Of a DNA stretch of 64,000 nt, positions 2,973 to 55,811 are shown piece by piece. The notes under the pieces were generated by a model, which was not told the DNA's origin, ran no database searches, and saw only the letters and a list, made by a program, of their open reading frames with translations. A program made the position numbers and the translations under genes. The DNA comes from Candidatus Pacebacteria bacterium UBA6180 (GTDB lineage Bacteria > Patescibacteriota > Microgenomatia > UBA1400 > PJMF01), in assembly GCA_002422165.1 (NCBI GenBank), contig DITQ01000008.1, positions 125,082-189,081 on the forward strand, read 5' to 3'. Each line of letters begins with the position of its first letter. The first letter of the stretch is position 1.

Positions 2973-2988
2973 TTTTTGATTTGATTTC

Positions 2989-5774: not shown

Positions 5775-5786
5775 AATTTTAAAATT

Positions 5787-7630: not shown

Positions 7631-7639
7631 ATTAATAGT

Positions 7640-16540: not shown

Positions 16541-17985
16541 AAATTTCGTCGCAAACTTCTAATTTCTGCTGCAAATCTCTTACCCGAAATTGCCAAAAAT
16601 ATAGTCGCATATAGAGCAAAACTCGCCACGCCGCCCAAAAAGAAATAGTTAAAACTAAGACTCCACCACTTCAGGCCTAGCATTCCAAAGCCAGCCATCA
16701 AACCACTAGCTACAAGCTGTGCCCAGACGTTTCTCATGATTTGCACGGGCACATATTTTTTGATCAAAATGACTGAAAGCACAGAAGTCCAAGAAATCAG
16801 GAAGGCGGCGATGGCTACGCCGTTGAAAGCAAAACGATAAACAAGCAAAGGAGTTAACAACCAAGTCAAAGTCGTCCAAAAAATCATCAGCTTGAGAGTT
16901 TGGTTGATTTTACCAATAGCGTTTAGACTATTGACTAGGGGTGTCGAAATTGCCGACCATGCGATACTTAGCGAAAACAAGACGAAACTAAACAAAGCTG
17001 GTTGCCACTTAGCGTAGCGTGGCACCAATTCCGTCAGAGGATAAACGAAAACGCTCATTCCCACCAAAGTGGGGAAAATAAATAAGGCGATAAAATAAAT
17101 CGATTTCTCGATGGCTTTTTTGAGTAAATCTGGGTGGTTTTGCAAGCGCGAAAAAGTTGGAAAAGTAATCGCCATGACGTTTTGCACCGTCAGATTATAT
17201 GGATACATTGACCAATTTTTGGCCCACTGCATGTAACCAAAATCACGTAAGGGCAAAAAAGCTCCTAGTAACAAGAAATATAACTGGTCTTTGATCCGCG
17301 CCAATAGATCATTGAGTTGAAATTTGATTCCAAAACCAATTAAGCCACGAAGTGAATTCATGGTGATTTTCAAACGAGGCAACCATGGTTGAATCACTTG
17401 AATAACGATGATGCCAATAATTGAGCGGGCTAAAATTGCGTAAACATAAGAAACGATGCCAAAACCATGCCAAGCCATGAAAATCAAAATGCCGTGAAAG
17501 ACCAACTGTTCAAAAATTTGTGGCAAAACCAATTTATTAAAGTCTAAACGGCGCTCTAAAATGATCGAGGAAACAGTTTTAAAAGTAGCTAGGGGAAAAG
17601 AAATACCTAATGCTAGCAACACCCAGATTCCCTGTTCACCTAGTTTGTTTTGTAAAGCATCGATACGACTCAAACCTAAAATTAGCAAAAATAACAAACA
17701 AGCCAAGAGAAACTGAACACTAAAGGCAGTTTTATGATCGTCCTCGCTTGGCTCATTTTTCTTCTGAATCAGCGCTGCTGCCAAACCAATATCAGAGAAG
17801 AAGACCAGCAAAGCAATAATCTGAGTGACAATGCCAAAAATTCCAAACTCTTCTGGCGAGAAAAAAGCGCTCAAAACGAAAGCCGAAGCCAAGCCAATTC
17901 CCTGGATCAAGATTGTGCGTAAGAAGAAAGAGAAAACACCCCTAACGGATTTGCGTTTGATTTGATCAACTTCTAGGGTTTGCAT
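16537..17985 (-). CDS. Polysaccharide/oligosaccharide flippase, Wzx-like (MOP superfamily)
   Basis: 482 aa, about 12-14 TM helices, typical Wzx-like composition. First gene of the minus-strand GT-C operon. Confidence 0.6.
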   Translation of the reverse strand: MQTLEVDQIKRKSVRGVFSFFLRTILIQGIGLASAFVLSAFFSPEEFGIFGIVTQIIALLVFFSDIGLAAALIQKKNEPSEDDHKTAFSVQFLLACLLFLLILGLSRIDALQNKLGEQGIWVLLALGISFPLATFKTVSSIILERRLDFNKLVLPQIFEQLVFHGILIFMAWHGFGIVSYVYAILARSIIGIIVIQVIQPWLPRLKITMNSLRGLIGFGIKFQLNDLLARIKDQLYFLLLGAFLPLRDFGYMQWAKNWSMYPYNLTVQNVMAITFPTFSRLQNHPDLLKKAIEKSIYFIALFIFPTLVGMSVFVYPLTELVPRYAKWQPALFSFVLFSLSIAWSAISTPLVNSLNAIGKINQTLKLMIFWTTLTWLLTPLLVYRFAFNGVAIAAFLISWTSVLSVILIKKYVPVQIMRNVWAQLVASGLMAGFGMLGLKWWSLSFNYFFLGGVASFALYATIFLAISGKRFAAEIRSLRRNL

Positions 17986-18056: not shown

Positions 18057-19166
18057 ATGAATAAAGACCTCTTAGTCACTCTTGAATACAAGAAGCCTAG
18101 TGGTTTTTGGCGCTTCTTTCTATGGACTTTGGCCATACTCTTTTTGACCGCAATTAGCCTGGTGATTTACCTATATGTCCAGAGCAATAAACTTGTCAAG
18201 GGTTTTACCGCTGGAGCAGAAATCAGTCGCGAAGAATTTTTTGATCAAAGCAATCAGTTTCTAACTGCTTTGCAGAGTCATTACCAAGAAGTTGGCGAGT
18301 TGCCAGAGAAATACAACTTTTTGATTCTCGGCACAGACAAGCTCAGTGGTCGCGAAGGTGATCCCGAGTTGACCGATAGCATAATGCTGCTGCAACTTGA
18401 CTTTGAAGCTGGAGAAATCAAAACTCTATCACTGCCTCGCGACCTATATAACGATGACTACCAAACTAAAATCAACGCTCTATATTTCTATGGTTTAGAA
18501 AAATATCCTGATGAGCCGGGAAAGTTTCCGAGAGAAGTACTTACTGAGATGACAGACCTTAAATTTGATTACACTCTGGTCATCAGTATTGAAGACCTGG
18601 AAAAATTAATTGCCTTGGTTGGCGATATCGAGCTAGATGTGCCGACTGCTTTTACTGATCCAAGTTTTCCCATTCCTGGAGTGGACGTTCACACCGTGCG
18701 TGATCCAAAGCTACTATATGAAGAAATTAGCTTCGAGACTGGGCTTCAAACTATGGATAGCGCGACTGCGCTCAAATACATGCGTAGTCGCTACAGCGAA
18801 GGTGATGAAGGCACTGATTTGGCTCGCTCCGCTCGCCAGCAGCTCGTCCTAGAAGCTTTGGCTTCAAAACTAATAAAAGCTCAAGATCCATTTCTCTTTG
18901 GTCAACTTTACCGCTTCTACCTCGACAGATTCTCTAAATTTTTGCCAGCAGAGGAAATTGCTAAGTTGCTCAGCGTCTACTTGAACTATGTCGAGAGGAA
19001 TCAAGCTACCGAATTGACTTTTGTCAAACACCAGTTGCCGATCTACCCTACGGATGACAACGGTGTCATTTATAATCCTCCATTCTGGCAGAGTAGACAG
19101 CAGTGGATTTATCAGATCAAAGATCAACAAACCTTTAAAGAAAGCCTAGATGCTGTTTTCAACTAA
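18057..19166 (+). CDS. LytR-CpsA-Psr (LCP) family cell-wall glycopolymer phosphotransferase
   Basis: N-terminal TM then LCP core FLILGTDKLSGREGDPELTDSIMLLQLDFEAGEIKTLSLPRDLY...ALKYMRSRY. Confidence 0.8.
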   Translation: MNKDLLVTLEYKKPSGFWRFFLWTLAILFLTAISLVIYLYVQSNKLVKGFTAGAEISREEFFDQSNQFLTALQSHYQEVGELPEKYNFLILGTDKLSGREGDPELTDSIMLLQLDFEAGEIKTLSLPRDLYNDDYQTKINALYFYGLEKYPDEPGKFPREVLTEMTDLKFDYTLVISIEDLEKLIALVGDIELDVPTAFTDPSFPIPGVDVHTVRDPKLLYEEISFETGLQTMDSATALKYMRSRYSEGDEGTDLARSARQQLVLEALASKLIKAQDPFLFGQLYRFYLDRFSKFLPAEEIAKLLSVYLNYVERNQATELTFVKHQLPIYPTDDNGVIYNPPFWQSRQQWIYQIKDQQTFKESLDAVFN

Positions 19167-19182
19167 AAATCTATTTCGCCTT

Positions 19183-19317
19183 ATGTTACTGTTAATTATT
19201 GTCTTGGCCTTGGCTGCCGGCTATTACCAATCAGCGCTAGAGGTGGAACAACGCAAAAATAAATATTTACGAAATCAGATCGAAATCTTAAGCAAGCAAG
19301 AAACAACGAAAATCTAA
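19183..19317 (+). CDS. Small (44 aa) single-TM protein with C-terminal coiled-coil-like region (hypothetical)
   Basis: ATG at 19183: MLLLIIVLALAAGYYQSALEVEQRKNKYLRNQIEILSKQETTKI*. Fills the LCP-rmlB gap. No clear SD. Below the track size cut-off. Confidence 0.3.
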   Translation: MLLLIIVLALAAGYYQSALEVEQRKNKYLRNQIEILSKQETTKI

Positions 19318-19321
19318 ACAT

Positions 19322-20344
19322 ATGTCGCAAAAAACTCTCCTCGTCACTGGCGGCGCTGGCTTCATCGGCTCCAATTTCATTCGCCATTATTTGCAAGCTC
19401 ACCCAGAAGATAAAATTATCAATCTAGACCTTTTGACTTACGCAGGCAACCTAAGCACTCTGACAGAAGTTGCCAACAATCCTAATTACCGCTTCGTCCA
19501 GGGAGACATTTGCGACCCACAAACTGTCGATCAGCTGATGGCTGAAATTGATACAGTTGTTCACTTCGCTGCCGAAACACACGTGGATCGCTCGATTATG
19601 GAACCAGCGGTTTTCTTACAAACCAACGTCATTGGCACCCAAGTTTTGCTTGATGGTGCTTTGCGCCACAAGATTAAACGCTTCCACCACATCTCCACTG
19701 ACGAGGTTTTTGGCGCTTTGCCACTTGATTCAGCTACAAAATTCACTGAGGACACTCCCTATAATCCACACAGTCCATACTCTGCTTCCAAAGCTGCTTC
19801 CGACCACCTAGTACGAGCTTACGGCGACACCTATGGTTTACCCTACACCCTCAGCAACTGCTCCAATAACTATGGCGAATATCATTTTCCTGAAAAAATG
19901 ATTCCCTTAGCGATCACCAATCTCATCGATGACCAAAAAGTCCCAGTCTATGGTGATGGCCTGTACGTTCGTGACTGGCTTTATGTACAAGATCACGCTC
20001 GCGGCATTGACCTCGTCTTGAGAGATGGAGAGATTGGTAAAACCTACCTTTTCGGCGGTCTCTACAAAGACATCAATAACTTGGAACTAGTCAAAATGAT
20101 TCTCTCCATCATGGGTAAAGACGAGAGCCATATCGAACATGTTTTGGATAGACCTGGCCACGATCGACGCTACAGTGTTGATTTTTCGAAAACCAGTCAA
20201 GCACTTGGTTGGCAGCCAAGCCTGGATTTAGAGGAAGGTTTGCGTAGAACCATTTCCTGGTATCAGGCTAACCAAGCTTGGTGGCGACCACTCAAGGAGA
20301 AAAATCAAGCCTACTTCACCAAGCAATACCAAGAAAGAAAGTAA
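19322..20344 (+). CDS. rfbB: dTDP-glucose 4,6-dehydratase
   Basis: LLVTGGAGFIGSNFIRHY...YSASKAASDHLVRAY (SDR YxxxK), typical RmlB length and motifs. Confidence 0.85.
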   Translation: MSQKTLLVTGGAGFIGSNFIRHYLQAHPEDKIINLDLLTYAGNLSTLTEVANNPNYRFVQGDICDPQTVDQLMAEIDTVVHFAAETHVDRSIMEPAVFLQTNVIGTQVLLDGALRHKIKRFHHISTDEVFGALPLDSATKFTEDTPYNPHSPYSASKAASDHLVRAYGDTYGLPYTLSNCSNNYGEYHFPEKMIPLAITNLIDDQKVPVYGDGLYVRDWLYVQDHARGIDLVLRDGEIGKTYLFGGLYKDINNLELVKMILSIMGKDESHIEHVLDRPGHDRRYSVDFSKTSQALGWQPSLDLEEGLRRTISWYQANQAWWRPLKEKNQAYFTKQYQERK

Positions 20345-20347
20345 AAA

Positions 20348-21226
20348 ATGAGCAAAATTCCCCTACTTGGCACAGGCCTCAACGGTTTGGTTGGTTCGAA
20401 ATTTGTAGCTGATTTTGGCGACATTTATGATTTTACCAATCTCGACTTGCGTCACTCTCAACAACCGACAGATATCACAAACCAACAGCAGGTTTATACA
20501 GCTCTAAACAACTCCAGTGCCAAATTTGTCGTTCACATGGCTGCTTACACCGACGTCACTGGCGCCTTTCAACAAACCGGAGACCAAACTGCACCATGCT
20601 ACCAAATCAACGTTAAGGGCACAGAAAATTTGGTCAGAGCCTGCAACGCAACTGACAAGCACCTAATCCATCTCTCCACCGCCTATGTTTTTGATGGCGA
20701 GAAAAAGGAAGCTTATAAAGAAACCGATTCAACCAATCCAATCGAGTGGTATGGTCAAACTAAAGCCCTGGCTGAAGAAGTAGTGATGAAAGATGCAAAA
20801 ACTTGGACCATCTTGCGTATCGACCAACCTTTCCGCAACGACATTTTTCCTAAAGTTGACACTCTGCACCGCATCATCGAGGGTATGCGCAGTGATCAAC
20901 TCCATCCACAGTTCACTGACCACCATTTCGGACCCACCTATATCAATGATTTCGTCAAAATTATTGATCTCGTCATTCGCCAACGCATGATTGGCCTCTA
21001 TCATGCTTCTTCTGGGGAGTCTTGGACTGACTACGAGTTTGCCAAAGCCGTCAATAACATTTTACAGCTTGATTTTGAAGTTCGGCGGGGTTCACTTGCT
21101 AAGTATTTGAAAACAAGTCGCCGGCCCTATCAAAAGAACACGGCTTTAAACATCGACAAGCTCAAAAAGTTTTTAGATTTCAAACCAAGATCTATCAAAC
21201 AAGCAATTGGTGAAACTATTCTTTAG
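20348..21226 (+). CDS. rmlD: dTDP-4-dehydrorhamnose reductase (RmlD family)
   Basis: HLSTAYVFDG, YGQTKALAEE and a 292-aa size fit the RmlD family; adjacent to rmlB. Confidence 0.65.
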   Translation: MSKIPLLGTGLNGLVGSKFVADFGDIYDFTNLDLRHSQQPTDITNQQQVYTALNNSSAKFVVHMAAYTDVTGAFQQTGDQTAPCYQINVKGTENLVRACNATDKHLIHLSTAYVFDGEKKEAYKETDSTNPIEWYGQTKALAEEVVMKDAKTWTILRIDQPFRNDIFPKVDTLHRIIEGMRSDQLHPQFTDHHFGPTYINDFVKIIDLVIRQRMIGLYHASSGESWTDYEFAKAVNNILQLDFEVRRGSLAKYLKTSRRPYQKNTALNIDKLKKFLDFKPRSIKQAIGETIL

Positions 21227-21244
21227 TGATAGAATCTAAATATT

Positions 21245-21433
21245 ATGATTGAAAAACTACCAGAAGAAGATGTTATTGCCAACATAACTAGAAGAATGAG
21301 TGTTGAAGGTGCTGATTACTTGGAAAAAGAACGCAAGCGATTGAAAGAGCTGAAGGAAAAAGGAGTTGAGATTCCAGTAGAGATCATCGAAGCTGTTGGT
21401 GATTTAGAACCAGAGAATTCAATGGAAAAATAG
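21245..21433 (+). CDS. Hypothetical small acidic protein (62 aa)
   Basis: Coding-like composition, fills the otherwise empty gap between rmlD and convergent trmD. No SD and no recognisable motif. Confidence 0.35.
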   Translation: MIEKLPEEDVIANITRRMSVEGADYLEKERKRLKELKEKGVEIPVEIIEAVGDLEPENSMEK

Positions 21434-21441
21434 CTCTTATC

Positions 21442-22083
21442 TTATTTTCCACTTCTCCATTTTTTAATTTTCTCGTGATCCCCAGACAATAGCACTTCCG
21501 GCACTTCCCAACCACGATAAACAGCTGGCTTGGTGAATTGTGGATGAGCTAATTTGCCAGGAAAATTGTGCGATTCATCTTGATTGCTGGCTTCATTGCC
21601 AAGAACCCCAGGCAACAAGCGCGTCACTGCGTCAGCCATCACTATGGCTGCCGCCTCGCCGCCAGTCAACACGTAATCGCCGACTCGCACTTCAGCATCC
21701 ACTAAGTGTAGGGCAACTCGCTCATCGACCCCTTCATAGTGACCACAGATTATGGTCAGTTCTTGCAGTTTAGCTAAATGCTGAGCTCCTTTTTGAGTAA
21801 ACATTTCGCCTTTGGCTGAAGTTAGAATGATTTGCCTATCAACTTGGCCTTTGGCTACTCCCAAAGATACCAGAGCGCGGTCAATTGGCTCGACCATCAT
21901 CACCATCCCTGGTCCGCCGCCAAAAGGGCGCTGATCAGTGGTTTGGTGCTTATCAGTGGTGAAGTCACGCAAATTCAGCACACGAAATTCAACTAACTCC
22001 TTGGCCACGGCGCGTTTGAGAATAGAAGTTTGCAAAGGTGTCGTGAAAAAATCTGGAAAGATGGTCAAAAAATTAATTTTCAT
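21442..22083 (-). CDS. trmD: tRNA (guanine37-N1)-methyltransferase
   Basis: MKINFLTIFPDFF...FTTDKHQTTDQRPFGGGPGMVM. Start moved to the ATG at comp. 22081-22083; the longer track ORF would overlap ugd. Confidence 0.85.
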   Translation of the reverse strand: MKINFLTIFPDFFTTPLQTSILKRAVAKELVEFRVLNLRDFTTDKHQTTDQRPFGGGPGMVMMVEPIDRALVSLGVAKGQVDRQIILTSAKGEMFTQKGAQHLAKLQELTIICGHYEGVDERVALHLVDAEVRVGDYVLTGGEAAAIVMADAVTRLLPGVLGNEASNQDESHNFPGKLAHPQFTKPAVYRGWEVPEVLLSGDHEKIKKWRSGK

Positions 22084-22131: not shown

Positions 22132-23412
22132 ATGAACGTAACTGTTATTGGGACTGGTTTTGTGGGAGTAGTGTCGGCAGCGGTTTATGCTTCCCTTGGT
22201 CACCAAGTGATCGGACTAGACGTCGACGAGAATAAAATCAAAATGCTTAAGCAAGGCCAAGTGCCATTTTATGAACCAGATTTGCAGGAACTTCTTCTCG
22301 AACAGCAAAAAACCAGCCAATTGGAATTCACCACTTCATACGAAGAAGCTATTGGCGAAGCAGAGATTATCATTGTCGCTGTTGGCACCCCTTCGGCTCC
22401 TGACGAAACCGCAGACTTGCGCTACGTTCTGGCGAGCAGCGATTCGATGGCGCCTTACCTTCAAGAAAATGTTATCGTTGCTATCAAGTCGACAGTGCCG
22501 CCGGGCACTCTCGAAAAAGTCACTCAAACTATCAAGAAGAAAACTCAAGTCAAATTCTATGGGGCTTCTTTACCTGAATTTTTACGTGAAGGTTCGGCCG
22601 TCCATGATACTCTCCACCCCGATCGAATTGTCATAGGTGCAGAAGATAATTTTGTTTTCGAGAAACTTGAAAAGCTACATGTCAAACTTAAAGCTTCAAT
22701 AGTACGTTGTAGCATCCCTTCCGCCCAAATGGCCAAATACACCGCCAATGCTTATTTGGCGACTCGAATCACTTTCATTAACGAAATTGCCAACCTCTGC
22801 GAGAAAAATGGCGCCAACATCGATGAAATAATTCAAGCCATCGGTTATGACAAACGCATCGGGCCTCACTACTGGTACCCAGGTCTTGGTTATGGTGGCT
22901 CTTGTTTCCCTAAAGACGTCAAGGAGTTAGCTGCCTATTCACGCAGCGTTGGCGAGGATGGCAACTTACTCAACCGTATTAATGAGATCAATAAAGCCCG
23001 CATTTTTCGTTTGCTAGACAGGTTTGAGCAAGAAACCGGTGGCTTCGAAAGCAAAACTATCGCTCTGCTTGGCTTAGCTTTTAAACCCAACACCGATGAT
23101 ATGCGCGAAGCCCCCTCTACCAAGATTATTCCTTACCTTAGCAAACAAGGTGCTAAAATCCAAAGCTATGACCCCATGGCTAAATACCAAAATTCAGATG
23201 GTGACCGACATACACAAGTTGCGACTATCGAAACAGCCTGTGCCGGTGCCGACATTATTATGGCAGTGGTAGAGTGGCCTGATATTGTCAACTTTGATTT
23301 CTCGACTGTCAAAACCGAGCAGACTCAATTTTTCATCGATACACGCAACCAATTCTCTGCTAGCAAAATCGAGTCTTCAGGCTATAAATATTTAGGTGTT
23401 GGAAAAAAATAA
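22132..23412 (+). CDS. ugd: UDP-glucose 6-dehydrogenase
   Basis: MNVTVIGTGFVGVVSAAVYASLGHQVIGLDVDENKI...GGSCFPKD (catalytic Cys region), UDPG/GDP-Man dehydrogenase family. Confidence 0.85.
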   Translation: MNVTVIGTGFVGVVSAAVYASLGHQVIGLDVDENKIKMLKQGQVPFYEPDLQELLLEQQKTSQLEFTTSYEEAIGEAEIIIVAVGTPSAPDETADLRYVLASSDSMAPYLQENVIVAIKSTVPPGTLEKVTQTIKKKTQVKFYGASLPEFLREGSAVHDTLHPDRIVIGAEDNFVFEKLEKLHVKLKASIVRCSIPSAQMAKYTANAYLATRITFINEIANLCEKNGANIDEIIQAIGYDKRIGPHYWYPGLGYGGSCFPKDVKELAAYSRSVGEDGNLLNRINEINKARIFRLLDRFEQETGGFESKTIALLGLAFKPNTDDMREAPSTKIIPYLSKQGAKIQSYDPMAKYQNSDGDRHTQVATIETACAGADIIMAVVEWPDIVNFDFSTVKTEQTQFFIDTRNQFSASKIESSGYKYLGVGKK

Positions 23413-24351
23413 ATGGCAAGAATTTTGATTACTGGTGGAACTGGCTTCGTTGCCTCTCATTTAGTTGAAGCGCTCCACAAGCGCGGTGAAGAAGACATTC
23501 ACCTCACCGCTTACAGAGATGAAGGAGAATTCGTCAAGCAATTTGTCAAAACCAAAAATATCCATCAATTAAATTTAGCTGACAAACAAGCCACTCTGGA
23601 TCTCATCCAAAAAATTCAACCAGATCAAATTTATCATTTAGCTTCGCTAGCCAGCGTTGGTGATAGTTTTGAAAAACAAAGTTTCGTACTTGAAATGAAT
23701 ATTGCCTTGCAAGTCAATTTGCTGGAGGCCATCAAACTTCACGTTCCAAAAACTAAACTCCTGCACATCAGCACTGCTTTGATTTATGCCAAAAGCAACC
23801 AGCCTCTCAATGAGCTGGCTACTGTGGGACCAGACAACCCTTACGCTTTGTCTAAATTCACTCAAGATTTGTTGACTCAAATTTTTAGTCAAAAAGAGAA
23901 CTTGCAAGCAGTCATCGCTCGCCCTTTTAATCACATTGGCGAACGACAAACCCTAGGTTTCGTCGTCGCTGATTGGGCCGCAGCAATTGCTCGCATTGAG
24001 CGAGGTGAACAGGAATCTTTACCAGTCGGCAACCTAAGCAGTGTTAGAGATTTCACTGATGTCAAAGATATGGTGCAGGCCTATATTTTGCTAATGGAAA
24101 AAGGCTTGCAAGGAGAAATTTATAATATTGGTTCTGGCCAAGGCGTAAAAATTCAAGAAATTTTAGATTTGCTCTGCTCCCTAGCGCAGAAGCCTATTGA
24201 AGTGATTGCTGATCCACAAAAAATTCGTCCGATTGACCTTCCTTCTCTTGTTTGCGACAATGAAAAGATCATGACACTTGGCTGGCAGCCAAAACATCAA
24301 TTAAAAGCTACTTTAGCAAGAATTTTAGAATACTGGAGAGAAAATCTATGA
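23413..24351 (+). CDS. rmd: GDP-4-dehydro-6-deoxy-D-mannose reductase (Rmd-like SDR), predicts GDP-D-rhamnose
   Basis: [14 protein letters not shown]..., [28 protein letters not shown]; these match Pseudomonas Rmd motifs ([11 protein letters not shown] / VSRDFLDVQD / YNVCSGQ). Directly upstream of gmd. Confidence 0.7.
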
Positions 24352-25325
24352 AAAAAGCATTTATCACCGGCATCACTGGCCAGGATGGTTCTTACTTGGC
24401 AGAATTACTTTTAAATAAGGGCTACAAAGTCTACGGCTTGACCAGACGCACCAGCACCCAAAATTTCGACCGCATCAAAGATATCATTCACAACCCCAAT
24501 CTAGAGTTAATTTCTGGAGATCTAATCGACCAGCATTCATTAACTTTTGCTCTCCAAGATATTCAGCCTGACGAAATTTATAACCTAGCCGCCCAATCTT
24601 TCGTCAAAGCTTCCTGGGAACAACCAGTTTTGACCGGAGAATTCACTGCCATCGGTGTCACCAGAGTTTTAGAAGCAATGCGCTTAGCTTGTCCTAAAGC
24701 CAAGTTTTACCAGGCTAGCTCAAGCGAAATGTTTGGCAAAGTGCGCGAAGTACCTCAAACTGAAGAAACCCCCTTTTACCCTCGCTCTCCCTATGGTGTG
24801 GCCAAGGTTTATGGTCACTGGATCACCGTCAATTATCGCGAATCATATGATATGTTCGCCGTCTCTGGTATTCTTTTCAATCATGAGTCGCCGCGCCGAG
24901 GACTCGAGTTCGTCACTCGTAAAATTAGCAATGCCGTCGCTCGCATCAAACTTGGCAAACAGAAATTTGTAGAGCTAGGTAATCTCGATGCCAAACGCGA
25001 CTGGGGCTATGCCAAAGACTATGTCGAGGCGATGTGGCTAATGTTGCAGCAAGATCGCGCTGATGATTACGTAGTGGCCACTGGCGAAACTCACAGCGTA
25101 CGCGAGTTTTTGGAAATCGCCTGCAAAGCAGTTAGCTTAGGCAACTACGAAGATTACTTCAGACATAATAAAAAATATGATCGCCCCGCCGAAGTTGATT
25201 TACTTATTGGCGATCCAACTAAAGCCAAAAAAGACTTAGGCTGGCAACCATCTGTCAGCTTTGAGGAATTAGTAACCTTGATGGTAGAAAAAGATCTGGA
25301 ATTCGAAAGTAAAAATCCCAATTAG
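24348..25325 (+). CDS. gmd: GDP-mannose 4,6-dehydratase
   Basis: [35 protein letters not shown]...[10 protein letters not shown]. Canonical Gmd N-terminus and Y-x3-K. Confidence 0.9.
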
Positions 25326-25335
25326 AAATCACTTC

Positions 25336-26535
25336 ATGAAAATTGCCGTTGTCATCATTCCGACTTACAATGAAAAAGGGAATATTGTCAAAACTATCGA
25401 GGCTTTGGCAGTAGTTTTTCAAAAAATTAAAAATTACCAAATGAAAGTTTTGGTAGTTGATGACAGTTCGCCAGATGGCACAGCAGAAGTGGTTCGTCAG
25501 TTGCAAAAAAAGTTTAAATTTTTAGAATTGTTGGTCAATTCAAAAAAATCTGGTTTAGGCGGAGCCTACCTAAGCGGCATGAAGCAAGCCTTTGGTAAAA
25601 TCAGGGCTGATCTTGTTTTTGAGTTCGACGCCGACCTATCCCACGACCCAGCCAAAATTCCTGATTTTCTAAGCAAAATCGATGAAGGTAATGACTTCGT
25701 GCTTGGCTCACGCTATATAGCTGGCGGCTCTATTCCAGAAAATTGGGCTCTGCATCGTAAATTTTTAAGCATTTTTGGTAACTTATTTATCAATTTTTTG
25801 ATGTTAGACTTCTCCCTGCGAGACTGGACGACTGGCTTTCGCGCTATCAAGAAAAAAGTCTACTTGGCAGTAGAAGCGGAGCTTCACAGCGAACGGTTCT
25901 CTGGCTATACTTTTCAAATTGGCTTCTTACATAAAGCGCTGCGTAAAGGTTTTAAAATTGCTGAAGTACCCTTTGCCTTCAAAGACCGCGTGGTCGGCAA
26001 ATCAAAAATTGGCCCGGAATACATCAAAAATACTATGCTTTACCTTATTAGAGTCAGAGTTAAAGAGCTATTAGCTATGCGCATAATCCGTTTTGCAATG
26101 GTGGGTGCTTTTGGAGCTATAGTTCAACTTGTAGCGTTACAATTGTGGCGCATTATTTTTGCAACCGAAAAAACCTTTGTTATTGCCAACTTTCTCTCGA
26201 TAGAGACTGCTGTTATTTCCAACTTCATCTGGAGCAACTTCTGGACTTTCAAGGACCGCAAGCTCAAGGCAAGTCAAATTCCCTTAAGCTTCATCACCTT
26301 CAATCTCTCCAGCGCTGGTTCGATTTTGATTCAAAGCGTAATTGCCTACGTAACTGCTCACACGGTTGGTTTGGTGCCATTATTCGTGGTGCCAACCATC
26401 AACTACACGGTTGACACGGGAGTCGTTTCAGCCATCATCGGTATTTTGATTGGCATGTTTTGGAACTTTTTTGCTTACAATACTTTTATTTGGAAGAAGA
26501 AAAAAGTTGATGAAAAATCGCCTGTCACAAATTAA
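25336..26535 (+). CDS. Polyprenyl-phosphate mannose/hexose synthase (Dpm1/Ppm1-like GT2) fused to a C-terminal GtrA-like 4-TM domain
   Basis: VVIIPTYNEKGNIVKTIEAL...VLVVDDSSPDGTAEVV...EFDADLSHDP, then RFAMVGAFGAIVQLVALQ... four TM helices (GtrA-like, as in archaeal DPMS). Confidence 0.75.
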   Translation: MKIAVVIIPTYNEKGNIVKTIEALAVVFQKIKNYQMKVLVVDDSSPDGTAEVVRQLQKKFKFLELLVNSKKSGLGGAYLSGMKQAFGKIRADLVFEFDADLSHDPAKIPDFLSKIDEGNDFVLGSRYIAGGSIPENWALHRKFLSIFGNLFINFLMLDFSLRDWTTGFRAIKKKVYLAVEAELHSERFSGYTFQIGFLHKALRKGFKIAEVPFAFKDRVVGKSKIGPEYIKNTMLYLIRVRVKELLAMRIIRFAMVGAFGAIVQLVALQLWRIIFATEKTFVIANFLSIETAVISNFIWSNFWTFKDRKLKASQIPLSFITFNLSSAGSILIQSVIAYVTAHTVGLVPLFVVPTINYTVDTGVVSAIIGILIGMFWNFFAYNTFIWKKKKVDEKSPVTN

Positions 26536-28063
26536 GTTTGAGCAAATTTTTTTAGTGCTAATTTTATTAGCAGCTATTTTTTTACGTTTTTATAATCTAC
26601 GCGATTCTCTAATGTTTCAGGGTGATCAGGGCAGAGATGCGCTAGTGGTCTCACAAATTTTCAAAGATTTAGATCCAGTTTTCATCGGACCGGTCACTAG
26701 CATTGGCAACATGTATCTAGGACCTTTTTATTATTATTTTATGCTTCCATTTTTGATGCTAAGTTATCCTGATCCGATGGGACCGGTTTTTGCGGTAGCC
26801 GCGCTTGGAGTTATCACAGTTTGGCTGCTATTTAAGGTTACTCGACAAATTTTCGGCATTAAAACTGCCTATCTAGCAACTTTTTTCTTCACTTTCTCTG
26901 CGGCAGCAGTTAACCTAAGTCGCTTCAGTTGGAATCCCAATATTGCTCCATTTTTCAGTTTGCTGATGTTTTATTTCACTTATTTAGCTTGGCAAAAAAA
27001 CAGCAAATACTGGCTAGCCGCCGCCATATGTTTTAGCTTGCTCATCCAATTGCATTACGTCACTCTTTTATCTTTTTCTGGACCAGCAATAATTCTATTA
27101 ATTCAATTAGTCGAAAAATACAAACTTACTCCAAAAAAATTCTTCATCAATCAAAAAAAATTGTTTGGCCATCTTGCTCTTTCGATAATAATTTTTCTAG
27201 TTTCCCTAGCTCCACTAGTTTTATTTGACTTCAAACATGACTTTATAAATGCTCGTTCCTTTAGCACAATCGTTGTCAAAGAAGATAGTTTCAACTTAGA
27301 GAAAAAAGCTAGAAAAGCTGGCTTTGGCACTTTGCAGAAATATTTTACACTTGACCTCAAAGATCGTGCTTCACAAGTTTTATTTGAACCAAGCTTTGGT
27401 GTTCACACTGCCAACCACCCACTACTTTTTATTACTGTCGGCTTAACACTTTTTTACCTACTCAAAACCAAAGTTCGTCTCAAAAAAGGCGAGATAGTTT
27501 TACTTGCCTATTTAGTCCCAGGCATTATCGGCGTCAGCCTATACCAACACCAAATCTACGAACATTACATTGCCTACCTCTTTCCTTTTATTTATCTTTT
27601 TTACGCTTTATTTTTTAGCAAAATCCGAAGTAGGTGGTTGCTAACCATTTGTTTATTACCTTTCGTAGTTTTTTTCATAATTAATAACGCCGGTCGATAT
27701 TGGCTTCAAGACAATAGCTGGACTATTGACGATATGCGCCATACTAGCGAAGCTATATTCGAAAGGGTCAAGGAAGGCGAGAAATATAATATAGTTTTGC
27801 TATCTGAATCTCGTGATCTCTACGGTATGAACTATCGCTATTTCCTGCATACCATGAGACAAGCTCCGGTAAAAATGGAGGATCACCTCTTGGCCAAAAA
27901 ACTTTTCATCATCAACGAAGAAAAAGTTGCCGATGACGTAGTTAGCTTACCCATTTACGAAATCATTGTCTTCAGAGGTAAATATGTCAGTGAAATTTTT
28001 CAAATAGAAAATGGCCCAGAAATTACTGTTTTAACTCGCTATAATGAACAGTCGTCACTATGA
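26510..28063 (+). CDS. Putative GT-C fold membrane glycosyltransferase
   Basis: LRFYNLRDSLMFQGDQGRDALVVSQIF... acidic loop-1 motif after TM1, about 12 TM helices. Start taken at ATG 26510 (M21 of the track ORF). Confidence 0.5.
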   Translation: MKNRLSQIKFEQIFLVLILLAAIFLRFYNLRDSLMFQGDQGRDALVVSQIFKDLDPVFIGPVTSIGNMYLGPFYYYFMLPFLMLSYPDPMGPVFAVAALGVITVWLLFKVTRQIFGIKTAYLATFFFTFSAAAVNLSRFSWNPNIAPFFSLLMFYFTYLAWQKNSKYWLAAAICFSLLIQLHYVTLLSFSGPAIILLIQLVEKYKLTPKKFFINQKKLFGHLALSIIIFLVSLAPLVLFDFKHDFINARSFSTIVVKEDSFNLEKKARKAGFGTLQKYFTLDLKDRASQVLFEPSFGVHTANHPLLFITVGLTLFYLLKTKVRLKKGEIVLLAYLVPGIIGVSLYQHQIYEHYIAYLFPFIYLFYALFFSKIRSRWLLTICLLPFVVFFIINNAGRYWLQDNSWTIDDMRHTSEAIFERVKEGEKYNIVLLSESRDLYGMNYRYFLHTMRQAPVKMEDHLLAKKLFIINEEKVADDVVSLPIYEIIVFRGKYVSEIFQIENGPEITVLTRYNEQSSL

Positions 28064-28815
28064 AAACCTATCTTTCAGTCATTTTGCCCTCTTACAATGA
28101 AAGTAAAAACATTGCTCGCGGTGTTTTGACAGAAGTCTACCAATTTTTGCTCGACTACGAGAGATCTTGGGAGTTAGTACTATCTGACGATGGAAGCAGT
28201 GATGACACTCCAAAAAAACTGCAAGAATTTGCCAAGCAGGACTCTCGCATCAAAGTCATTCTCAATCCTCATCGTGGCAAGGGCCCAACAGTCAAGGCTG
28301 GCATGCTTAAAGCAGAAGGCAGCTGGCGACTTTTTACTGATTTCGACCAATCTACTCCTCTTCGAGAAATTCGCAAACTCCTCAAACATACCTCTTCTCA
28401 TGAGGTGATCATTGGTTCTAGAGAGATAGTTGGCGCCAAACGGGAAAAAGAGCCATTTTATCGCCACCTGATGGGTCGAGGCTTCAATCTAGTTGTACAG
28501 CTTTTGGCTGTTCAAGGCACTCAAGACACCCAGTGTGGCTTCAAGCTGTTTTCTGCAACGGCAAGTGAAAAATTATTTGGCAATTTACACATTTACTCAG
28601 GAAAAAGCGAACGCCAAGACGCTTTTACTGGCGCTTTTGACGTCGAGCTGCTTTACTTAGCCAAAAAATACCACTTCAGCGTCAAAGAAGTCCCCATCCT
28701 CTGGAAACACTTCGCTACTGATCGAGTCAACCCCTTGCGAGATTCTTTTTTGATGTTTGCCGATATTTTGCGTATCAAGCTAGCAGACTTGCGTGGCAAA
28801 TATCCTAAGAGCTAG
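28060..28815 (+). CDS. Dpm1/ArnC-like GT2 (polyprenyl-phosphate sugar synthase-like), soluble
   Basis: LSVILPSYNESKNIARGV...LSDDGSSDDTPKKL...TDFDQSTP. Confidence 0.7.
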   Translation: MKTYLSVILPSYNESKNIARGVLTEVYQFLLDYERSWELVLSDDGSSDDTPKKLQEFAKQDSRIKVILNPHRGKGPTVKAGMLKAEGSWRLFTDFDQSTPLREIRKLLKHTSSHEVIIGSREIVGAKREKEPFYRHLMGRGFNLVVQLLAVQGTQDTQCGFKLFSATASEKLFGNLHIYSGKSERQDAFTGAFDVELLYLAKKYHFSVKEVPILWKHFATDRVNPLRDSFLMFADILRIKLADLRGKYPKS

Positions 28816-28834
28816 GTGGCGATATAAATGCAAA

Positions 28835-30019
28835 ATGAAAAAAGCCTTATTATTTAGTTATTTTGCTCTTTTTCTAATTTTTGCTGTTTTTTCTTTCGTA
28901 TTAACTGACCCTAATTTATTTTTACTCAAAGCCGACTGGTTCGTTAATTTTCAACTCTATCTCTGGCAAAATTTCCTCCCTCTGCAAACCTGGCGCACTG
29001 GGTTTTTTGTGGTTTTAGTGCTGCTGCTTTTTTGCAATTACATCCTCATCATTAAAAATTGGCCAAAATTAGAGTTGAATAGTCGCCGCGATTTTTGGCT
29101 GTTTCTAGCAGCTCTTAGTTTGCCACTAATTTTGTCTTATAACGCCCTTTCTTACGATCTTTTTAATTATATCTTCAACGCCAAGATGGTCATTGAGTTT
29201 GGTGCTAATCCGCACCTTAGAACTGCCTTGGAGTTTGCCGATGAGCCAATGTTGCGCTTCATGAACAATGTTCACACCGTGGCTCCATACGGTTATGGTT
29301 GGACAGGCTTGTCGCTTTTGCCTTACGCTCTTGCTGGCAGTAAATTTTTGGCTGCCTTCTTCTCTTTTAAGTTGTTTGCTTTGCTGTCTCTGTTGCTTTG
29401 TTTACTGATTAGTGAAAAACTTTTCACCAAGGTTAACTATCGCCAATTGGCCTTGTTTTTTCTAAATCCTTTAGTTCTAATCGAGGTGCTCAGCAGCGCC
29501 CATAACGATTTGTGGATGCTGTCGCCAGCCCTAGGGGCGCTCTACCTGGCAAGTAATTTTGAAAATAAAAAAACAACTAAGCTTTTATTAATTGTCCTGC
29601 TCCTTGGCATTTCTATTTCGATCAAATTCGCCACCATCCTACTACTTCCTTTTATTTTGTACTTGCTTTTGCAAAGCAAATTGCCCAAAATTCCCTACTT
29701 TTACGACTTGATGAGCTTAGCGATGTTTGCGCCACTCTTGACTGAGAGATCAAAACATTTTTTGCCCTGGTATTTACTCTGGGCTTTAATTTTTCTGCCT
29801 TGGCTCAAGAGTAGTCTCTGGCGACAGTTGCTGCTTGTCTTTTCGCTAAGTGCGCTGCTGCGCTACGTGCCTTGGATTTATTATTTGCCGTGGATGAGCT
29901 TTCATCTGGATACGAGCAATTTATTAGCCTATCAAAAAAGCGTTACCTGGCTAATTCCTGCTTTCTTCCTCTTGTCCAAAGGCCTGCTTGTCTTGTTTAA
30001 TAGAAGTCGTGCAAAATAA
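28835..30019 (+). CDS. Integral membrane protein, putative GT-C glycosyltransferase (DUF2029/GT87-like features)
   Basis: Multi-TM. ...ILSYNALSYDLFNYIFNAKMVIEFGANPH...HNDLWM. Start ambiguous: GTG at 28793 or ATG at 28835. Confidence 0.4.
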   Translation: MKKALLFSYFALFLIFAVFSFVLTDPNLFLLKADWFVNFQLYLWQNFLPLQTWRTGFFVVLVLLLFCNYILIIKNWPKLELNSRRDFWLFLAALSLPLILSYNALSYDLFNYIFNAKMVIEFGANPHLRTALEFADEPMLRFMNNVHTVAPYGYGWTGLSLLPYALAGSKFLAAFFSFKLFALLSLLLCLLISEKLFTKVNYRQLALFFLNPLVLIEVLSSAHNDLWMLSPALGALYLASNFENKKTTKLLLIVLLLGISISIKFATILLLPFILYLLLQSKLPKIPYFYDLMSLAMFAPLLTERSKHFLPWYLLWALIFLPWLKSSLWRQLLLVFSLSALLRYVPWIYYLPWMSFHLDTSNLLAYQKSVTWLIPAFFLLSKGLLVLFNRSRAK

Positions 30020-55430: not shown

Positions 55431-55811
55431 ATGGAGCTAACTTTTCGAAGTGAAACCAAAACCAAAAACTGGCGCTATCTGCTTTTTTTACCCAAAGAGC
55501 TGCGACCATTAGGAGTCTTGACTCTTGGAATTAGCTTGATCATGTTGTTGATCAGCTTAGCTTTTTACTTTCCCTTGCAGAATCAAGTCCCGCTTTTTTA
55601 TTCACTGCCGAGCGATCAGCAGCTAGTTGATAAAAAATTCCTTTTTATCCTGCCAACTTTATCTATCCTCATCAATTTTTTTCACATGCTGATCATCAAG
55701 TTCAATAAAGAAATTCATGAATATGTATTAAAAATGTTCGTGCATCTAACTTTCCTGCTGCAAATTTTGCTTTTGGCGATTCTGCTTAGAATCATTATAA
55801 TAGTTACCTAA
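55431..55811 (+). CDS. Small integral membrane protein (hypothetical; about 4 TM)
   Basis: 126 aa, hydrophobic; sits between the GT-C and phosphotransferase genes. Confidence 0.45.
   Translation: MELTFRSETKTKNWRYLLFLPKELRPLGVLTLGISLIMLLISLAFYFPLQNQVPLFYSLPSDQQLVDKKFLFILPTLSILINFFHMLIIKFNKEIHEYVLKMFVHLTFLLQILLLAILLRIIIIVT

What the first reader, a model, noticed from the sequence alone, without database searches (positions are those of the whole stretch)
22132..25325. ugd-rmd-gmd operon predicts UDP-glucuronate plus the rare sugar GDP-D-rhamnose; an rmlB-rmlD pair without rmlA/rmlC nearby
24348-25325 is a canonical Gmd. The preceding 23413-24351 matches Rmd-specific motifs ([28 protein letters not shown]) rather than GDP-fucose synthase, which predicts GDP-D-rhamnose. 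D-rhamnose is known mainly from Pseudomonas A-band O-antigen and some S-layer glycans. Ugd (22132-23412) adds UDP-GlcA. Upstream, rmlB and rmlD (19322-21226) stand without the thymidylyltransferase and 3,5-epimerase genes in this window. If the missing steps are not elsewhere, L-rhamnose synthesis is incomplete or uses non-orthologous enzymes. Together these define unusual deoxyhexose donors for the GT arsenal.
Basis: partly seen in the sequence, partly recalled or inferred. Interest (0 to 1): 0.6.

Follow-up and report, generated by a model that had tools for sequence, protein, structure and literature searches.

The report
Conserved CPR cell-envelope sugar gene cluster
An uncultured ultra-small bacterium (Microgenomatia, candidate phyla radiation) carries ordinary genes for UDP-glucuronate, GDP-D-rhamnose and most of dTDP-L-rhamnose synthesis inside a cell-envelope sugar gene cluster found across its lineage, and the epimerase gene missing here lies at a distant site in close relatives rather than being absent from the lineage.

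Summary
The genes are real and sit at the stated coordinates. Gmd (24348-25325) passes its curated model. Ugd (22132-23412) is a nucleotide-sugar dehydrogenase closest to UDP-glucose dehydrogenases. The middle gene (23413-24351) is closest by a wide margin to the two experimentally characterised Rmd enzymes. It carries the quoted motifs, lacks the dehydratase glutamate, and overlaps gmd by 4 bases.

The three genes start a tightly packed eight-gene unit (22132-31484). It continues with a DPMS-type GDP-sugar:polyprenyl-phosphate glycosyltransferase, a second GT2 and three GT-C transferases.

The window comes from a Microgenomatia (Patescibacteria/CPR) contig. The order Wzx | LCP-rmlB-rmlD | trmD | ugd-rmd-gmd-DPMS-GT-C recurs in dozens of species-level genomes. 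In all 46 loci where rmd is seen, gmd follows directly, and the DPMS-like gene follows gmd wherever the contig continues.

The "incomplete L-rhamnose pathway" idea is not supported. An rmlC-like gene adjoins rmlB/rmlD in 25 of 68 related loci. In at least four close relatives it sits alone at a conserved distant site. rmlA was not found near the cluster in any genome examined and remains unresolved.

Verdict: a new member of a known kind. The product's C4 stereochemistry is untested.

The parts
16537..17985 (-). Wzx/MOP-family flippase, divergent from the LCP gene
   Evidence: Pfam Polysacc_synt_3 at 8.9e-51. NCBIfam MOP flippase 100.6 bits, below its cut-off. Same position in related loci.
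18057..19166 (+). LCP (LytR-CpsA-Psr) glycopolymer-to-peptidoglycan transferase
   Evidence: TIGR00350 66.9 bits against a cut-off of 62.3; PF03816 at 1e-23.
19322..20344 (+). RmlB, dTDP-glucose 4,6-dehydratase
   Evidence: TIGR01181 466.8 bits against a cut-off of 365.1. STDEVFG and YSASK motifs present. Adjacent to the RmlD-like gene in 68 of 68 related loci.
20348..21226 (+). Divergent RmlD-family 4-ketoreductase (probable dTDP-4-dehydrorhamnose reductase)
   Evidence: TIGR01214 aligned over positions 5-281 of 285, but 145.6 bits against a cut-off of 224.05. Best solved relatives are RmlDs, 4wpg at 6.4e-22. GLNGLVG, STAYVFDG and YGQTK are invariant in the family. An RmlC-like gene adjoins it in 25 of 68 related loci.
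21442..22083 (-). trmD (tRNA m1G37 methyltransferase). A housekeeping gene embedded between the two sugar operons, not part of the pathway.
   Evidence: PF01746 at 3.4e-53. Start codon read from the sequence. Present at this position in 63 of 65 related loci.
22132..23412 (+). Ugd, nucleotide-sugar 6-dehydrogenase, most likely UDP-glucose 6-dehydrogenase
   Evidence: TIGR03026 432.7 bits. Best solved relatives are UDP-Glc dehydrogenases at 299-311 bits, against GDP-mannose dehydrogenase at 203. GGSCFPKD motif present.
23413..24351 (+). Rmd-like GDP-4-keto-6-deoxy-D-mannose 4-reductase
   Evidence: Best solved relatives are Rmd 2pk3 (175.5 bits) and Rmd 6x3b (146.6 bits). The family profile gives 269 and 183 bits against 168 or less for non-Rmd chains. 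GGTGF, IST and YALSK motifs present; no dehydratase Glu. The start codon directly follows the ugd stop, and the gene overlaps gmd by 4 nt.
24348..25325 (+). Gmd, GDP-mannose 4,6-dehydratase
   Evidence: TIGR01472 452 bits against a cut-off of 415. 1rpn 417.6 bits. SSSE and YGVAK catalytic motifs present.
25336..26535 (+). DPMS-type GT2 fused to a GtrA-like membrane domain: GDP-sugar:polyprenyl-phosphate glycosyltransferase
   Evidence: PF00535 plus PF04138. Best solved relative is P. furiosus Dol-P-Man synthase 5mlz at 4.2e-40, 141 bits, across both domains; ArnC scores only 50. All guanine, DXD, acceptor-phosphate and A-loop residues of PfDPMS that were checked are invariant in 48 orthologues, except Tyr10 (47 of 48).
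26510..28063 (+). GT-C glycosyltransferase (PMT_2 family)
   Evidence: PF13231 at 4.1e-9. Gene call of 517 aa.
28060..28815 (+). Second GT2 of the DPMS/ArnC/GtrB type, without a membrane domain
   Evidence: PF00535 at 2.9e-21. Best solved relative 5mlz at 51.9 bits, then ArnC.
28835..30019 (+). GT-C glycosyltransferase of the MptA/MptB family
   Evidence: PF26314 hit precomputed on the 394-aa gene call. Weak PMT_2 match.
29988..31484 (+). GT-C glycosyltransferase (PMT_2 family), last gene of the packed unit
   Evidence: PF13231 at 3.8e-11. Conserved position in relatives.

Best explanation
The flagged region holds the first three genes of an eight-gene, tightly packed plus-strand unit (22132-31484). 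This unit belongs to a cell-envelope glycopolymer locus conserved in Microgenomatia (Patescibacteria/CPR).

Proposed reactions:
- Gmd dehydrates GDP-mannose to GDP-4-keto-6-deoxy-D-mannose.
- The translationally coupled Rmd-like reductase reduces the 4-keto group with NAD(P)H, giving GDP-D-rhamnose.
- Ugd oxidises UDP-glucose to UDP-glucuronate.
- The next gene is a DPMS-type enzyme. It loads a GDP-activated sugar (mannose, or possibly D-rhamnose) onto polyprenyl phosphate. The downstream GT-C enzymes use that lipid-linked sugar outside the membrane.
- Upstream, across trmD on the opposite strand, LCP-rmlB-rmlD supplies two of the four dTDP-L-rhamnose enzymes and the ligase that attaches the polymer to peptidoglycan. 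The 3,5-epimerase rmlC is encoded elsewhere in the genome. All nucleotidyltransferases are also encoded elsewhere.

Shown: gene identities at family level, conserved gene order, relocation of rmlC in relatives.
Inferred: the C4 stereochemistry of the Rmd product, the sugar carried by the DPMS-like enzyme, the final polymer, and the presence of rmlC and rmlA in this particular genome.
For: - Family assignments with curated cut-offs.
- Rmd candidate: its two best solved relatives are both characterised Rmds. The family profile scores 269 bits (2pk3) and 183 bits (6x3b), against 168 bits or less for every non-Rmd chain.
- It shares the RPFNHIG and VGNLxxxRDFTDV motifs with the Rmds. It lacks the S-x-E glutamate present in Gmd, RmlB and the heptose dehydratase.
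- Gene junctions: TAA|ATG between ugd and rmd, and an ATGA overlap between rmd and gmd.
- In all 46 of 80 species-level loci where rmd is seen, gmd follows (median gap 9 nt). The DPMS-like gene follows gmd unless the contig ends.
- The whole gene order is conserved at 39-92% protein identity.
- The DPMS-like enzyme matches PfDPMS across both domains. Guanine-binding Asp39, Gly68 and Leu69 are invariant (residue roles from PMC5526996).
- RmlC-like genes (PF00908, TIGR01221 80-92 bits) adjoin rmlB/rmlD in 25 of 68 loci. They keep His63, Lys73 and Tyr133.
- In the window's clade rmlC sits between pepM29 and a UvrD/AddA-like helicase. On contig DBRQ01000009.1 this is about 120 kb from the cluster. 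Exact copies are also recorded on contigs the size of CP011212.1 and JAHIUB010000002.1.
Against: - No NCBIfam model names the Rmd candidate. Its best NCBIfam hits are all below their cut-offs.
- In a neighbour-joining tree the CPR clade is monophyletic (99%). It falls in the GDP-sugar SDR group (68%), but its link to the two characterised Rmds is unresolved (29-30% bootstrap).
- Identity to the Rmds is only about 35%.
- Sequence cannot fix C4 stereochemistry.
- The RmlD-like and RmlC-like proteins both score below their equivalog cut-offs.
- The window organism's own rmlC was not located. No rmlA, manC, manB or galU was seen in the window or in about 1.4 Mb of related loci.
- No promoter or terminator signal delimits the unit.
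Confidence: 0.7

Rival explanations
1. The Rmd-like enzyme reduces GDP-4-keto-6-deoxy-D-mannose with the opposite facial selectivity. It would then make GDP-6-deoxy-D-talose, as in Aggregatibacter actinomycetemcomitans serotype a, rather than GDP-D-rhamnose.
For: The substrate and the gmd coupling would be the same. Sequence similarity of about 35% to the Rmds does not fix stereochemistry. The tree does not resolve a clade with the characterised Rmds.
Against: Both experimentally characterised Rmds are the top hits, with a margin of about 100 bits for the family profile over non-Rmd chains in the case of 2pk3. JGI's annotation names the homologues Rmd. No talose synthase sequence was available for comparison.
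Confidence: 0.1
2. 23413-24351 is an NDP-sugar 4-epimerase acting on the product of the upstream Ugd (UDP-GlcA to UDP-GalA), not a reductase acting on the Gmd product.
For: It lies directly after ugd. It has the generic extended-SDR fold with an S/T-Y-K triad. NCBI names some homologues 'NAD-dependent epimerase/dehydratase family protein'.
Against: UDP-GlcA 4-epimerase 6zl6 scores only 75 bits (97 bits against the family profile), compared with 175 and 269 bits for Rmd 2pk3. GalE TIGR01179 scores 125 bits against a cut-off of 262.3. The gene overlaps gmd, not ugd. Locus L075 keeps rmd-gmd without ugd. No locus has rmd without gmd.
Confidence: 0.06
3. One reading: the rmlB-rmlD pair works without RmlC. 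Either the RmlD-like protein is a bifunctional 3,5-epimerase/4-reductase (NRS/ER or UGER type), or it reduces dTDP-4-keto-6-deoxy-D-glucose directly to a 6-deoxy-D-hexose such as D-quinovose or D-fucose.
For: No rmlC in the window. The RmlD-like protein scores below the RmlD equivalog cut-off. It forms a tight CPR-specific subfamily. rmlB and the rmlD-like gene are 3 nt apart here and overlap in L006.
Against: The same RmlD-like subfamily has an RmlC-like gene between or beside rmlB and rmlD in 25 of 68 loci. Close relatives that lack rmlC at the locus keep it elsewhere on the same chromosome. The RmlC-like proteins keep catalytic His, Lys and Tyr. No NRS/ER-type chain appeared among the solved relatives.
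Confidence: 0.08

Closest known systems
Gmd-Rmd GDP-D-rhamnose pathway of Pseudomonas aeruginosa (common polysaccharide antigen) and Aneurinibacillus thermoaerophilus (S-layer glycan)
   Same: A short-form Gmd, with P. aeruginosa GMD 1rpn as best solved relative (417.6 bits), is paired with an Rmd-type extended SDR. That SDR carries the RPFNHIG and VGNLxxxRDFTDV motifs and sits next to glycosyltransferases.
   Different: Only about 35% identity to either characterised Rmd. The gene order is rmd before gmd with a 4-nt overlap. The host is a Gram-positive-like CPR bacterium, and the pair is coupled to a DPMS-type enzyme and GT-C transferases. The A. thermoaerophilus Rmd keeps a Glu at the dehydratase position, while the CPR clade has Ala, Leu or similar there.
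Rhamnose-rich cell-wall polysaccharide loci of streptococci and lactococci, with three-component extracytoplasmic glycosylation (GT2 polyprenyl-P-sugar synthase, GtrA-like flippase, GT-C)
   Same: Both have dTDP-L-rhamnose genes, an LCP ligase, a Wzx-type flippase, a GT2 that charges polyprenyl phosphate, and GT-C enzymes that decorate the polymer outside the membrane.
   Different: Here the GT2 and the GtrA-like domain are fused as in archaeal type-III DPMS. The donor is a GDP-sugar rather than a UDP-sugar. rmlA and rmlC are not in the locus. A D-rhamnose branch is present.
Corynebacteriales polyprenyl-phospho-mannose system (Ppm1 with MptA/MptB) for lipomannan
   Same: A GDP-sugar:polyprenyl-phosphate transferase is followed by GT-C enzymes, one of them in the MptA/B family (PF26314). 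A decaprenyl-phosphate phosphoribosyltransferase homologue also lies in the window.
   Different: No lipoglycan anchor genes were recognised. The synthase has the archaeal DPMS architecture. The linkage to gmd-rmd and ugd has no counterpart in the mycobacterial system.
Pyrococcus furiosus dolichyl-phosphate mannose synthase (PDB 5mlz)
   Same: The match covers the catalytic and transmembrane domains (141 bits). Glu12, Asp39, Gly68, Leu69, the DAD motif, His94, Arg117, Arg131, Ser135, Arg202 and Lys208 are invariant in 48 CPR orthologues.
   Different: Gln93Ser and Phe177Tyr are fixed in all 48, and Lys178Thr in 47 of 48. From memory, human DPM1 also has DADLSH and G-Y-V at these positions. If so, the differences need not mean a different sugar.

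Membership tests
[quoted passage not shown] | Extended SDR with an N-terminal GxxGxxG Rossmann motif and an S/T-Y-K catalytic triad | tested here: met
   GGTGF at aa 8, IST at aa 118-120, YALSK at aa 144.
[quoted passage not shown] | Closer to experimentally characterised Rmds than to any other characterised SDR | tested here: met
   2pk3 175.5 bits and 6x3b 146.6 bits, against 113 bits or less for all other chains. With the family profile: 269 and 183 bits against 168 or less. Fcl, Gmd, GalE and RmlD models are all far below their cut-offs.
[quoted passage not shown] | Forms a clade with characterised Rmds in a phylogeny | tested here: inconclusive
   In the NJ tree the CPR clade has 99% support and the GDP-sugar SDR group 68%. 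The branching among Rmds, Gmds and the CPR clade has only 29-30% support.
[quoted passage not shown] | Genetically coupled to a Gmd that supplies the 4-keto substrate | tested here: met
   4-nt ATGA overlap with gmd. Gmd follows Rmd in 46 of 46 related loci.
[quoted passage not shown] | Product is GDP-D-rhamnose (equatorial 4-OH), not GDP-6-deoxy-D-talose | not testable with these tools
   Needs an enzyme assay with NMR or HPLC. No talose synthase sequence was available for comparison.
Gmd (GDP-mannose 4,6-dehydratase) | Passes the curated equivalog model and keeps the S/T-x-E plus YxxxK catalytic residues | tested here: met
   TIGR01472 452 bits against a cut-off of 415. SSSE at aa 124 and YGVAK at aa 149.
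UDP-glucose 6-dehydrogenase (Ugd) | Three-domain UDPG_MGDP dehydrogenase with a catalytic Cys, closest to UDP-Glc-specific enzymes | tested here: met
   PF03721, PF00984 and PF03720. GGSCFPKD motif. UDP-Glc dehydrogenases score 299-311 bits against 203 for GDP-Man dehydrogenase. The specific equivalog models (TuaD, AglM, PRK15057) are below their cut-offs, so substrate is inferred at family level.
RmlD (dTDP-4-dehydrorhamnose reductase) | Passes the curated equivalog model TIGR01214 | tested here: not met
   145.6 bits against a cut-off of 224.05, although aligned over positions 5-281 of 285.
RmlD (dTDP-4-dehydrorhamnose reductase) | RmlD-type motifs (STxYVFDG, YGxTK) and genomic association with rmlB and rmlC | tested here: met
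   STAYVFDG and YGQTK are invariant in 14 family members. rmlB is adjacent in 68 of 68 loci and an rmlC-like gene in 25 of 68.
Complete dTDP-L-rhamnose pathway (rmlABCD) | All four enzymes are encoded in the genome | tested here: inconclusive
   rmlB and a divergent rmlD are present. rmlC is absent from the window but present at a remote site in at least four clade relatives. rmlA was not found in the window or in 92 loci. The rest of this genome could not be read.
DPMS-type polyprenyl-phosphate glycosyltransferase | GT2 catalytic domain with a DAD motif, guanine-binding Asp, acceptor-phosphate Arg/Ser/Arg and A-loop Arg/Lys, joined to a GtrA/DPMS membrane domain | tested here: met
   5mlz at 4.2e-40 over query residues 1-339. 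These residues are invariant in 48 orthologues. PF00535 plus PF04138. The identity of the sugar was not tested.

The most novel reading that the evidence does not exclude
The DPMS-type enzyme that follows rmd-gmd in every related locus where the contig continues may take GDP-D-rhamnose (6-deoxy-mannose) rather than GDP-mannose. It would then make polyprenyl-phospho-D-rhamnose, a lipid-linked D-rhamnose donor not known to me from any organism. The downstream GT-C enzymes would use it to build or decorate a D-rhamnan outside the membrane. This would parallel the way mycobacteria use polyprenyl-phospho-mannose and decaprenyl-phospho-arabinose. [quoted passage not shown]
Probability: 0.15. Interest if true: 0.6.

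Novelty: new member of a known kind. Interest (0 to 1): 0.3.

Why it matters
Almost nothing is known experimentally about the cell envelopes of CPR/Patescibacteria, which are thought to live attached to other microbes.

A locus conserved across many Microgenomatia species predicts that their envelope polymer contains D-rhamnose, L-rhamnose and glucuronate. It also predicts that the polymer is assembled partly from polyprenyl-phosphate sugars by GT-C enzymes. That gives concrete targets for glycan analysis, lectin or antibody probes, and enzyme assays.

The result also corrects two points:
- A genome survey (bioRxiv 10.1101/854612) concluded that the GDP-D-rhamnose pathway is confined to Pseudomonas and Aneurinibacillus, and that only Pseudomonas has both rhamnose pathways.
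- NCBI names several of these Rmd-like proteins 'GDP-mannose 4,6-dehydratase', although they lack the dehydratase glutamate.

None of this changes known enzymology.

Tried and rejected
- Extending the contig beyond the window. Look-ups of the first and last window genes returned only short JGI contigs (about 5.5 kb further on the left, with ArgRS, a GT2, a GT4 and unknowns; nothing useful on the right) or nothing at all.
- Locating the window organism's own rmlC. An exact RmlC-like protein (P0285) lies in the same ENA assembly (ERZ27315062) on another contig. It is identical to the copy in MAG UBA6188, whose own cluster is only about 70% identical to the window, so it probably belongs to a co-occurring relative. 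P0282 came from a different sample.
- A remnant of rmlC in the 155-bp LCP-rmlB gap: no similarity found.
- Promoter and terminator scan: no enrichment over shuffled sequence, and no clear operon boundary.
- Viral contigs: no close relative of the Rmd-like gene. The best viral hits reach 34% identity or less. The published listing of rmd/gmd among Patescibacteriota phage genes (PMC12911398) could therefore not be linked to this clade.
- Reading sugar specificity from the DPMS-like pocket. Gln93Ser and Phe177Tyr are fixed and Lys178Thr nearly so. From memory, human DPM1 has similar residues, so I rejected this as evidence for a non-mannose donor.
- The idea that the RmlD-like protein is a bifunctional epimerase/reductase, dropped after RmlC-like genes turned up in relatives.
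- A Biopython bootstrap run timed out and was redone with my own code.
- Searches were input errors or a paper not held.


Full report
**What is at the coordinates.**
- Curated NCBIfam models identify 19322-20344 as dTDP-glucose 4,6-dehydratase (TIGR01181, 466.8 bits against a cut-off of 365.1).
- They identify 24348-25325 as GDP-mannose 4,6-dehydratase (TIGR01472, 452 against 415).
- They identify 22132-23412 as a nucleotide-sugar dehydrogenase (TIGR03026, 432.7 against 189.8).
- The 'rmlD' ORF aligns to TIGR01214 over almost its whole length but scores 145.6 against a cut-off of 224.05.
- A minus-strand trmD separates the two groups. Reading the sequence puts its start at 22083, leaving a 48-bp divergent gap before ugd.
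- The ugd stop codon is immediately followed by the rmd ATG. rmd and gmd overlap in ATGA.

**Identity of 23413-24351.**
No NCBIfam model reaches its cut-off. The Fcl model gives 75.8 bits (cut-off 500), Gmd 93.3 (415), GalE 125 (262.3) and RmlD 46.3 (224.05).

Against all solved structures the two best hits are the characterised reductases. Aneurinibacillus thermoaerophilus Rmd (2pk3) scores 175.5 bits at 1.8e-50, and Pseudomonas Rmd (6x3b) scores 146.6 bits. The next is a GDP-heptose dehydratase at 113 bits. Gmds score about 93 or less, and Fcl is not in the top 60. A profile of 12 CPR homologues widens the gap: 269 and 183 bits, against 168 (7us5), 133 (4lw8), 129 or less (Gmd), 122 or less (GalE) and 97 (UDP-GlcA 4-epimerase).

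They align with RTFNHIGPGQ / RPFNHIGPGQ and VGNLEAVRDFTDVRD / VGDIDVSRDFLDVQD of the two Rmds. The Rossmann motif and the S/T-Y-K triad are intact. The glutamate two residues after the catalytic Ser/Thr is present in Gmd, RmlB and the heptose dehydratase. In the CPR clade it is replaced by Ala, Leu or similar. The protein is therefore not a second dehydratase, although NCBI names some homologues that way.

I built a neighbour-joining tree with 300 bootstraps, using sequences transcribed from the alignments plus an E. coli Fcl that I recalled and validated against 1bsv. The CPR clade is monophyletic (99%). It falls inside a GDP-sugar SDR group (68%), away from Fcl, GalE, RmlB and RmlD. The tree does not resolve its relation to the two Rmds (29-30%). 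Positive clade membership with Rmd is unresolved.

**Gmd and Ugd.**
The best solved relative of Gmd is the P. aeruginosa enzyme of the D-rhamnose pathway (1rpn, 417.6 bits). Ugd is closest to bacterial UDP-glucose dehydrogenases (299-311 bits), against 203 bits for GDP-mannose dehydrogenase. It has the GGSCFPKD catalytic motif.

**The unit is larger than reported.**
Genes continue on the plus strand with gaps of 20 bases or less, or overlaps, up to 31484.
- 25336-26535 is a GT2 fused to a GtrA/DPMS membrane domain.
- 26510-28063 is a PMT_2 GT-C.
- 28060-28815 is a second GT2.
- 28835-30019 is an MptA/B-family GT-C.
- 29988-31484 is another PMT_2 GT-C.

The GT2-GtrA fusion matches Pyrococcus furiosus dolichyl-phosphate mannose synthase across both domains (5mlz, 4.2e-40, 141 bits). 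ArnC scores only 50 bits. In 48 CPR orthologues, PfDPMS's guanine-binding Asp39, Gly68 and Leu69, the DAD motif, His94, the acceptor-phosphate residues Arg117, Arg131 and Ser135, and the A-loop residues Arg202 and Lys208 are invariant. Gln93Ser and Phe177Tyr are fixed, and Lys178Thr is present in 47 of 48 (residue roles from PMC5526996). The enzyme is therefore predicted to move a GDP-activated sugar onto polyprenyl phosphate.

The rest of the window holds at least eight GT-C-type genes, several GT2 and GT4 genes, a Wzx flippase and an LCP ligase.

**Source organism and conservation.**
The exact Rmd protein lies on a 236,744-bp ENA metagenome contig. Homologues at 48-89% identity come from Pacebacteria, Woesebacteria and other Patescibacteria. 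[quoted passage not shown]

A scan of one genome per GTDB species with an RmlD-like alignment found 402 related stretches, of which 80 loci were fetched. tblastn with the window's proteins shows the order Wzx(-) LCP rmlB rmlD trmD(-) ugd rmd gmd DPMS-like GT-C GT2 GT-C GT-C in most of them.
- rmlB adjoins the RmlD-like gene in 68 of 68 loci with enough upstream sequence.
- trmD follows in 63 of 65 loci.
- ugd, rmd, gmd and the DPMS-like gene are present in 45, 44, 44 and 44 of the 65 loci with at least 5 kb downstream.
- Across all 80 loci, rmd never occurs without gmd (46 of 46, median gap 9 nt). The DPMS-like gene follows gmd except where a contig ends.

The module is therefore gained or lost as a block.

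**The 'missing' rmlC and rmlA.**
An RmlC-like cupin of about 200 aa lies between LCP and rmlB, or between rmlB and the RmlD-like gene, in 25 of 68 loci. It has PF00908 and TIGR01221 at 80-92 bits, below the 155.75 cut-off. His63, Lys73 and Tyr133 are invariant in 29 sequences, using S. enterica numbering from a recalled sequence. This places the RmlD-like subfamily in genuine rmlB-rmlC-rmlD contexts.

The window and its closest relatives (RmlD-like identity 69-73%) lack rmlC at the locus. A protein search with a clade RmlC found copies elsewhere.
- In MAG UBA1364 it lies at about 3.7-4.3 kb of contig DBRQ01000009.1. The cluster lies at 125-146 kb of the same contig.
- The same context, rpoD - map - pepM29 | rmlC | UvrD/AddA-like helicase - dus, recurs in UBA6188 and in several metagenome assemblies.
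- Members of the same 90% protein cluster are recorded on contigs of 853,053 bp and 751,110 bp. These sizes match the complete genome CP011212.1 and JAHIUB010000002.1, which carry the cluster without rmlC.

So rmlC was relocated, not lost, in this clade. I could not locate it in the window's own genome.

S. enterica RmlA, a recalled sequence validated against 1iim at 654 bits, found nothing at E of 1 or less in the window or in 92 loci. None of the nucleotidyltransferases needed for UDP-Glc, GDP-Man or dTDP-Glc is in the window. The absence of rmlA from the locus therefore matches the layout of all three branches and is not in itself remarkable. A freshwater CPR survey reports dTDP-L-rhamnose production as conserved in Microgenomatia (PMC9166423).

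**Most likely mechanism.**
- GDP-mannose is dehydrated by Gmd and reduced by the Rmd-like enzyme to GDP-D-rhamnose.
- Ugd supplies UDP-GlcA.
- RmlB, a remote RmlC and the divergent RmlD supply dTDP-L-rhamnose, or possibly its 4-epimer.
- Cytoplasmic GT2/GT4 enzymes build a lipid-linked glycan. Wzx flips it and LCP attaches it to peptidoglycan.
- The DPMS-type enzyme charges polyprenyl phosphate with mannose or D-rhamnose for the GT-C enzymes acting outside the membrane.

Only the family assignments and the gene order are shown. The sugars transferred and the polymer are inferred.

**Comparison with the literature, and novelty.**
A preprint survey of complete genomes found the GDP-D-rhamnose pathway only in Pseudomonas and Aneurinibacillus, and both rhamnose pathways only in Pseudomonas (10.1101/854612). 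Burkholderia bceM/bceN is a further predicted case (PMC3584063). The only paper found that links D-rhamnose genes with Patescibacteria lists rmlB, rmlD, gmd and rmd among phage-borne genes (PMC12911398). I found no description of this conserved module.

It is a new member of a known pathway in a poorly known lineage, and automated pipelines already label it. Interest is modest, at 0.3. The more novel possibility is a polyprenyl-phospho-D-rhamnose donor. It rests only on the co-occurrence of rmd-gmd with the DPMS-like gene, and I rate it at about 0.15.

Noticed in passing
window 55811-57816 (+): A WecA/MraY-family phosphotransferase (55811-56869; TIGR02380 68 bits, below its cut-off) is followed by a UbiA-family protein (56866-57816). 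The latter passes the model for decaprenyl-phosphate phosphoribosyltransferase (NF008978, 208.9 bits against a cut-off of 207), the first enzyme of the mycobacterial decaprenyl-phospho-arabinose route. This suggests another polyprenyl-phosphate sugar donor in this CPR genome.
   Followed up: no
window 1449-16540 and 26510-31484: The window holds at least eight GT-C-type membrane glycosyltransferases. Five are PMT_2, one is MptA/B-family and two are PTPS_related. A 557-aa ORF (14867-16540) has no Pfam hit; in relative L006 the first gene beyond the Wzx flippase, the same position, carries PMT/PMT_2 hits. This is an unusually high density for a small genome.
   Followed up: partly
window 21442-22083 (-); loci L005-L086: The housekeeping gene trmD is wedged on the opposite strand between rmlD and ugd. 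It keeps this position in 63 of 65 related species-level loci. Why a tRNA methyltransferase gene stays locked inside a glycan locus is unexplained.
   Followed up: partly
L088 10001-10609; L090 6001-6609; L093 5001-5609; L094 4001-4609: In the window's clade the lone rmlC always sits between a peptidase M29 gene and a UvrD/AddA-like helicase, whose 3' end it overlaps by about 30 nt. rpoD and map lie upstream and dus lies beyond the helicase. This points to a single relocation event in the clade's ancestor.
   Followed up: yes
proteins P0020, P0021, P0070, P0085, P0095 (homologues of window 23413-24351): NCBI names these Rmd-like proteins 'GDP-mannose 4,6-dehydratase'. The family lacks the dehydratase glutamate and scores 93 bits against a cut-off of 415 on the Gmd model. 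This is probably a propagated misannotation.
   Followed up: partly
loci L011, L012, L013, L019, L045, L069 and many others (record titles): Many contigs that carry this CPR-type cluster are titled 'uncultured Pseudomonadales bacterium'. Others are titled 'candidate division TM6', 'Vitreimonas sp.', 'Limisphaerales' or 'Methylococcaceae'. CP011212.1 is titled TM6, while its proteins are labelled Pacebacteria. The record titles look unreliable, or the contigs are mis-binned.
   Followed up: no
window 19183-19317 and 21245-21433 (+): Two small ORFs were called by the source annotation: 44 aa between LCP and rmlB, and 62 aa after the rmlD-like gene (coordinates read from the sequence). Relatives have ORFs of 56 and 77 aa in the first position. 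No similarity to rmlC was found there.
   Followed up: partly
window 7640-8386 (+) and 28060-28815 (+): Two further short GT2 proteins of the ArnC/DPMS/GtrB type lack membrane domains. Together with the DPMS-like fusion, the window may encode three different polyprenyl-phosphate sugar synthases.
   Followed up: no
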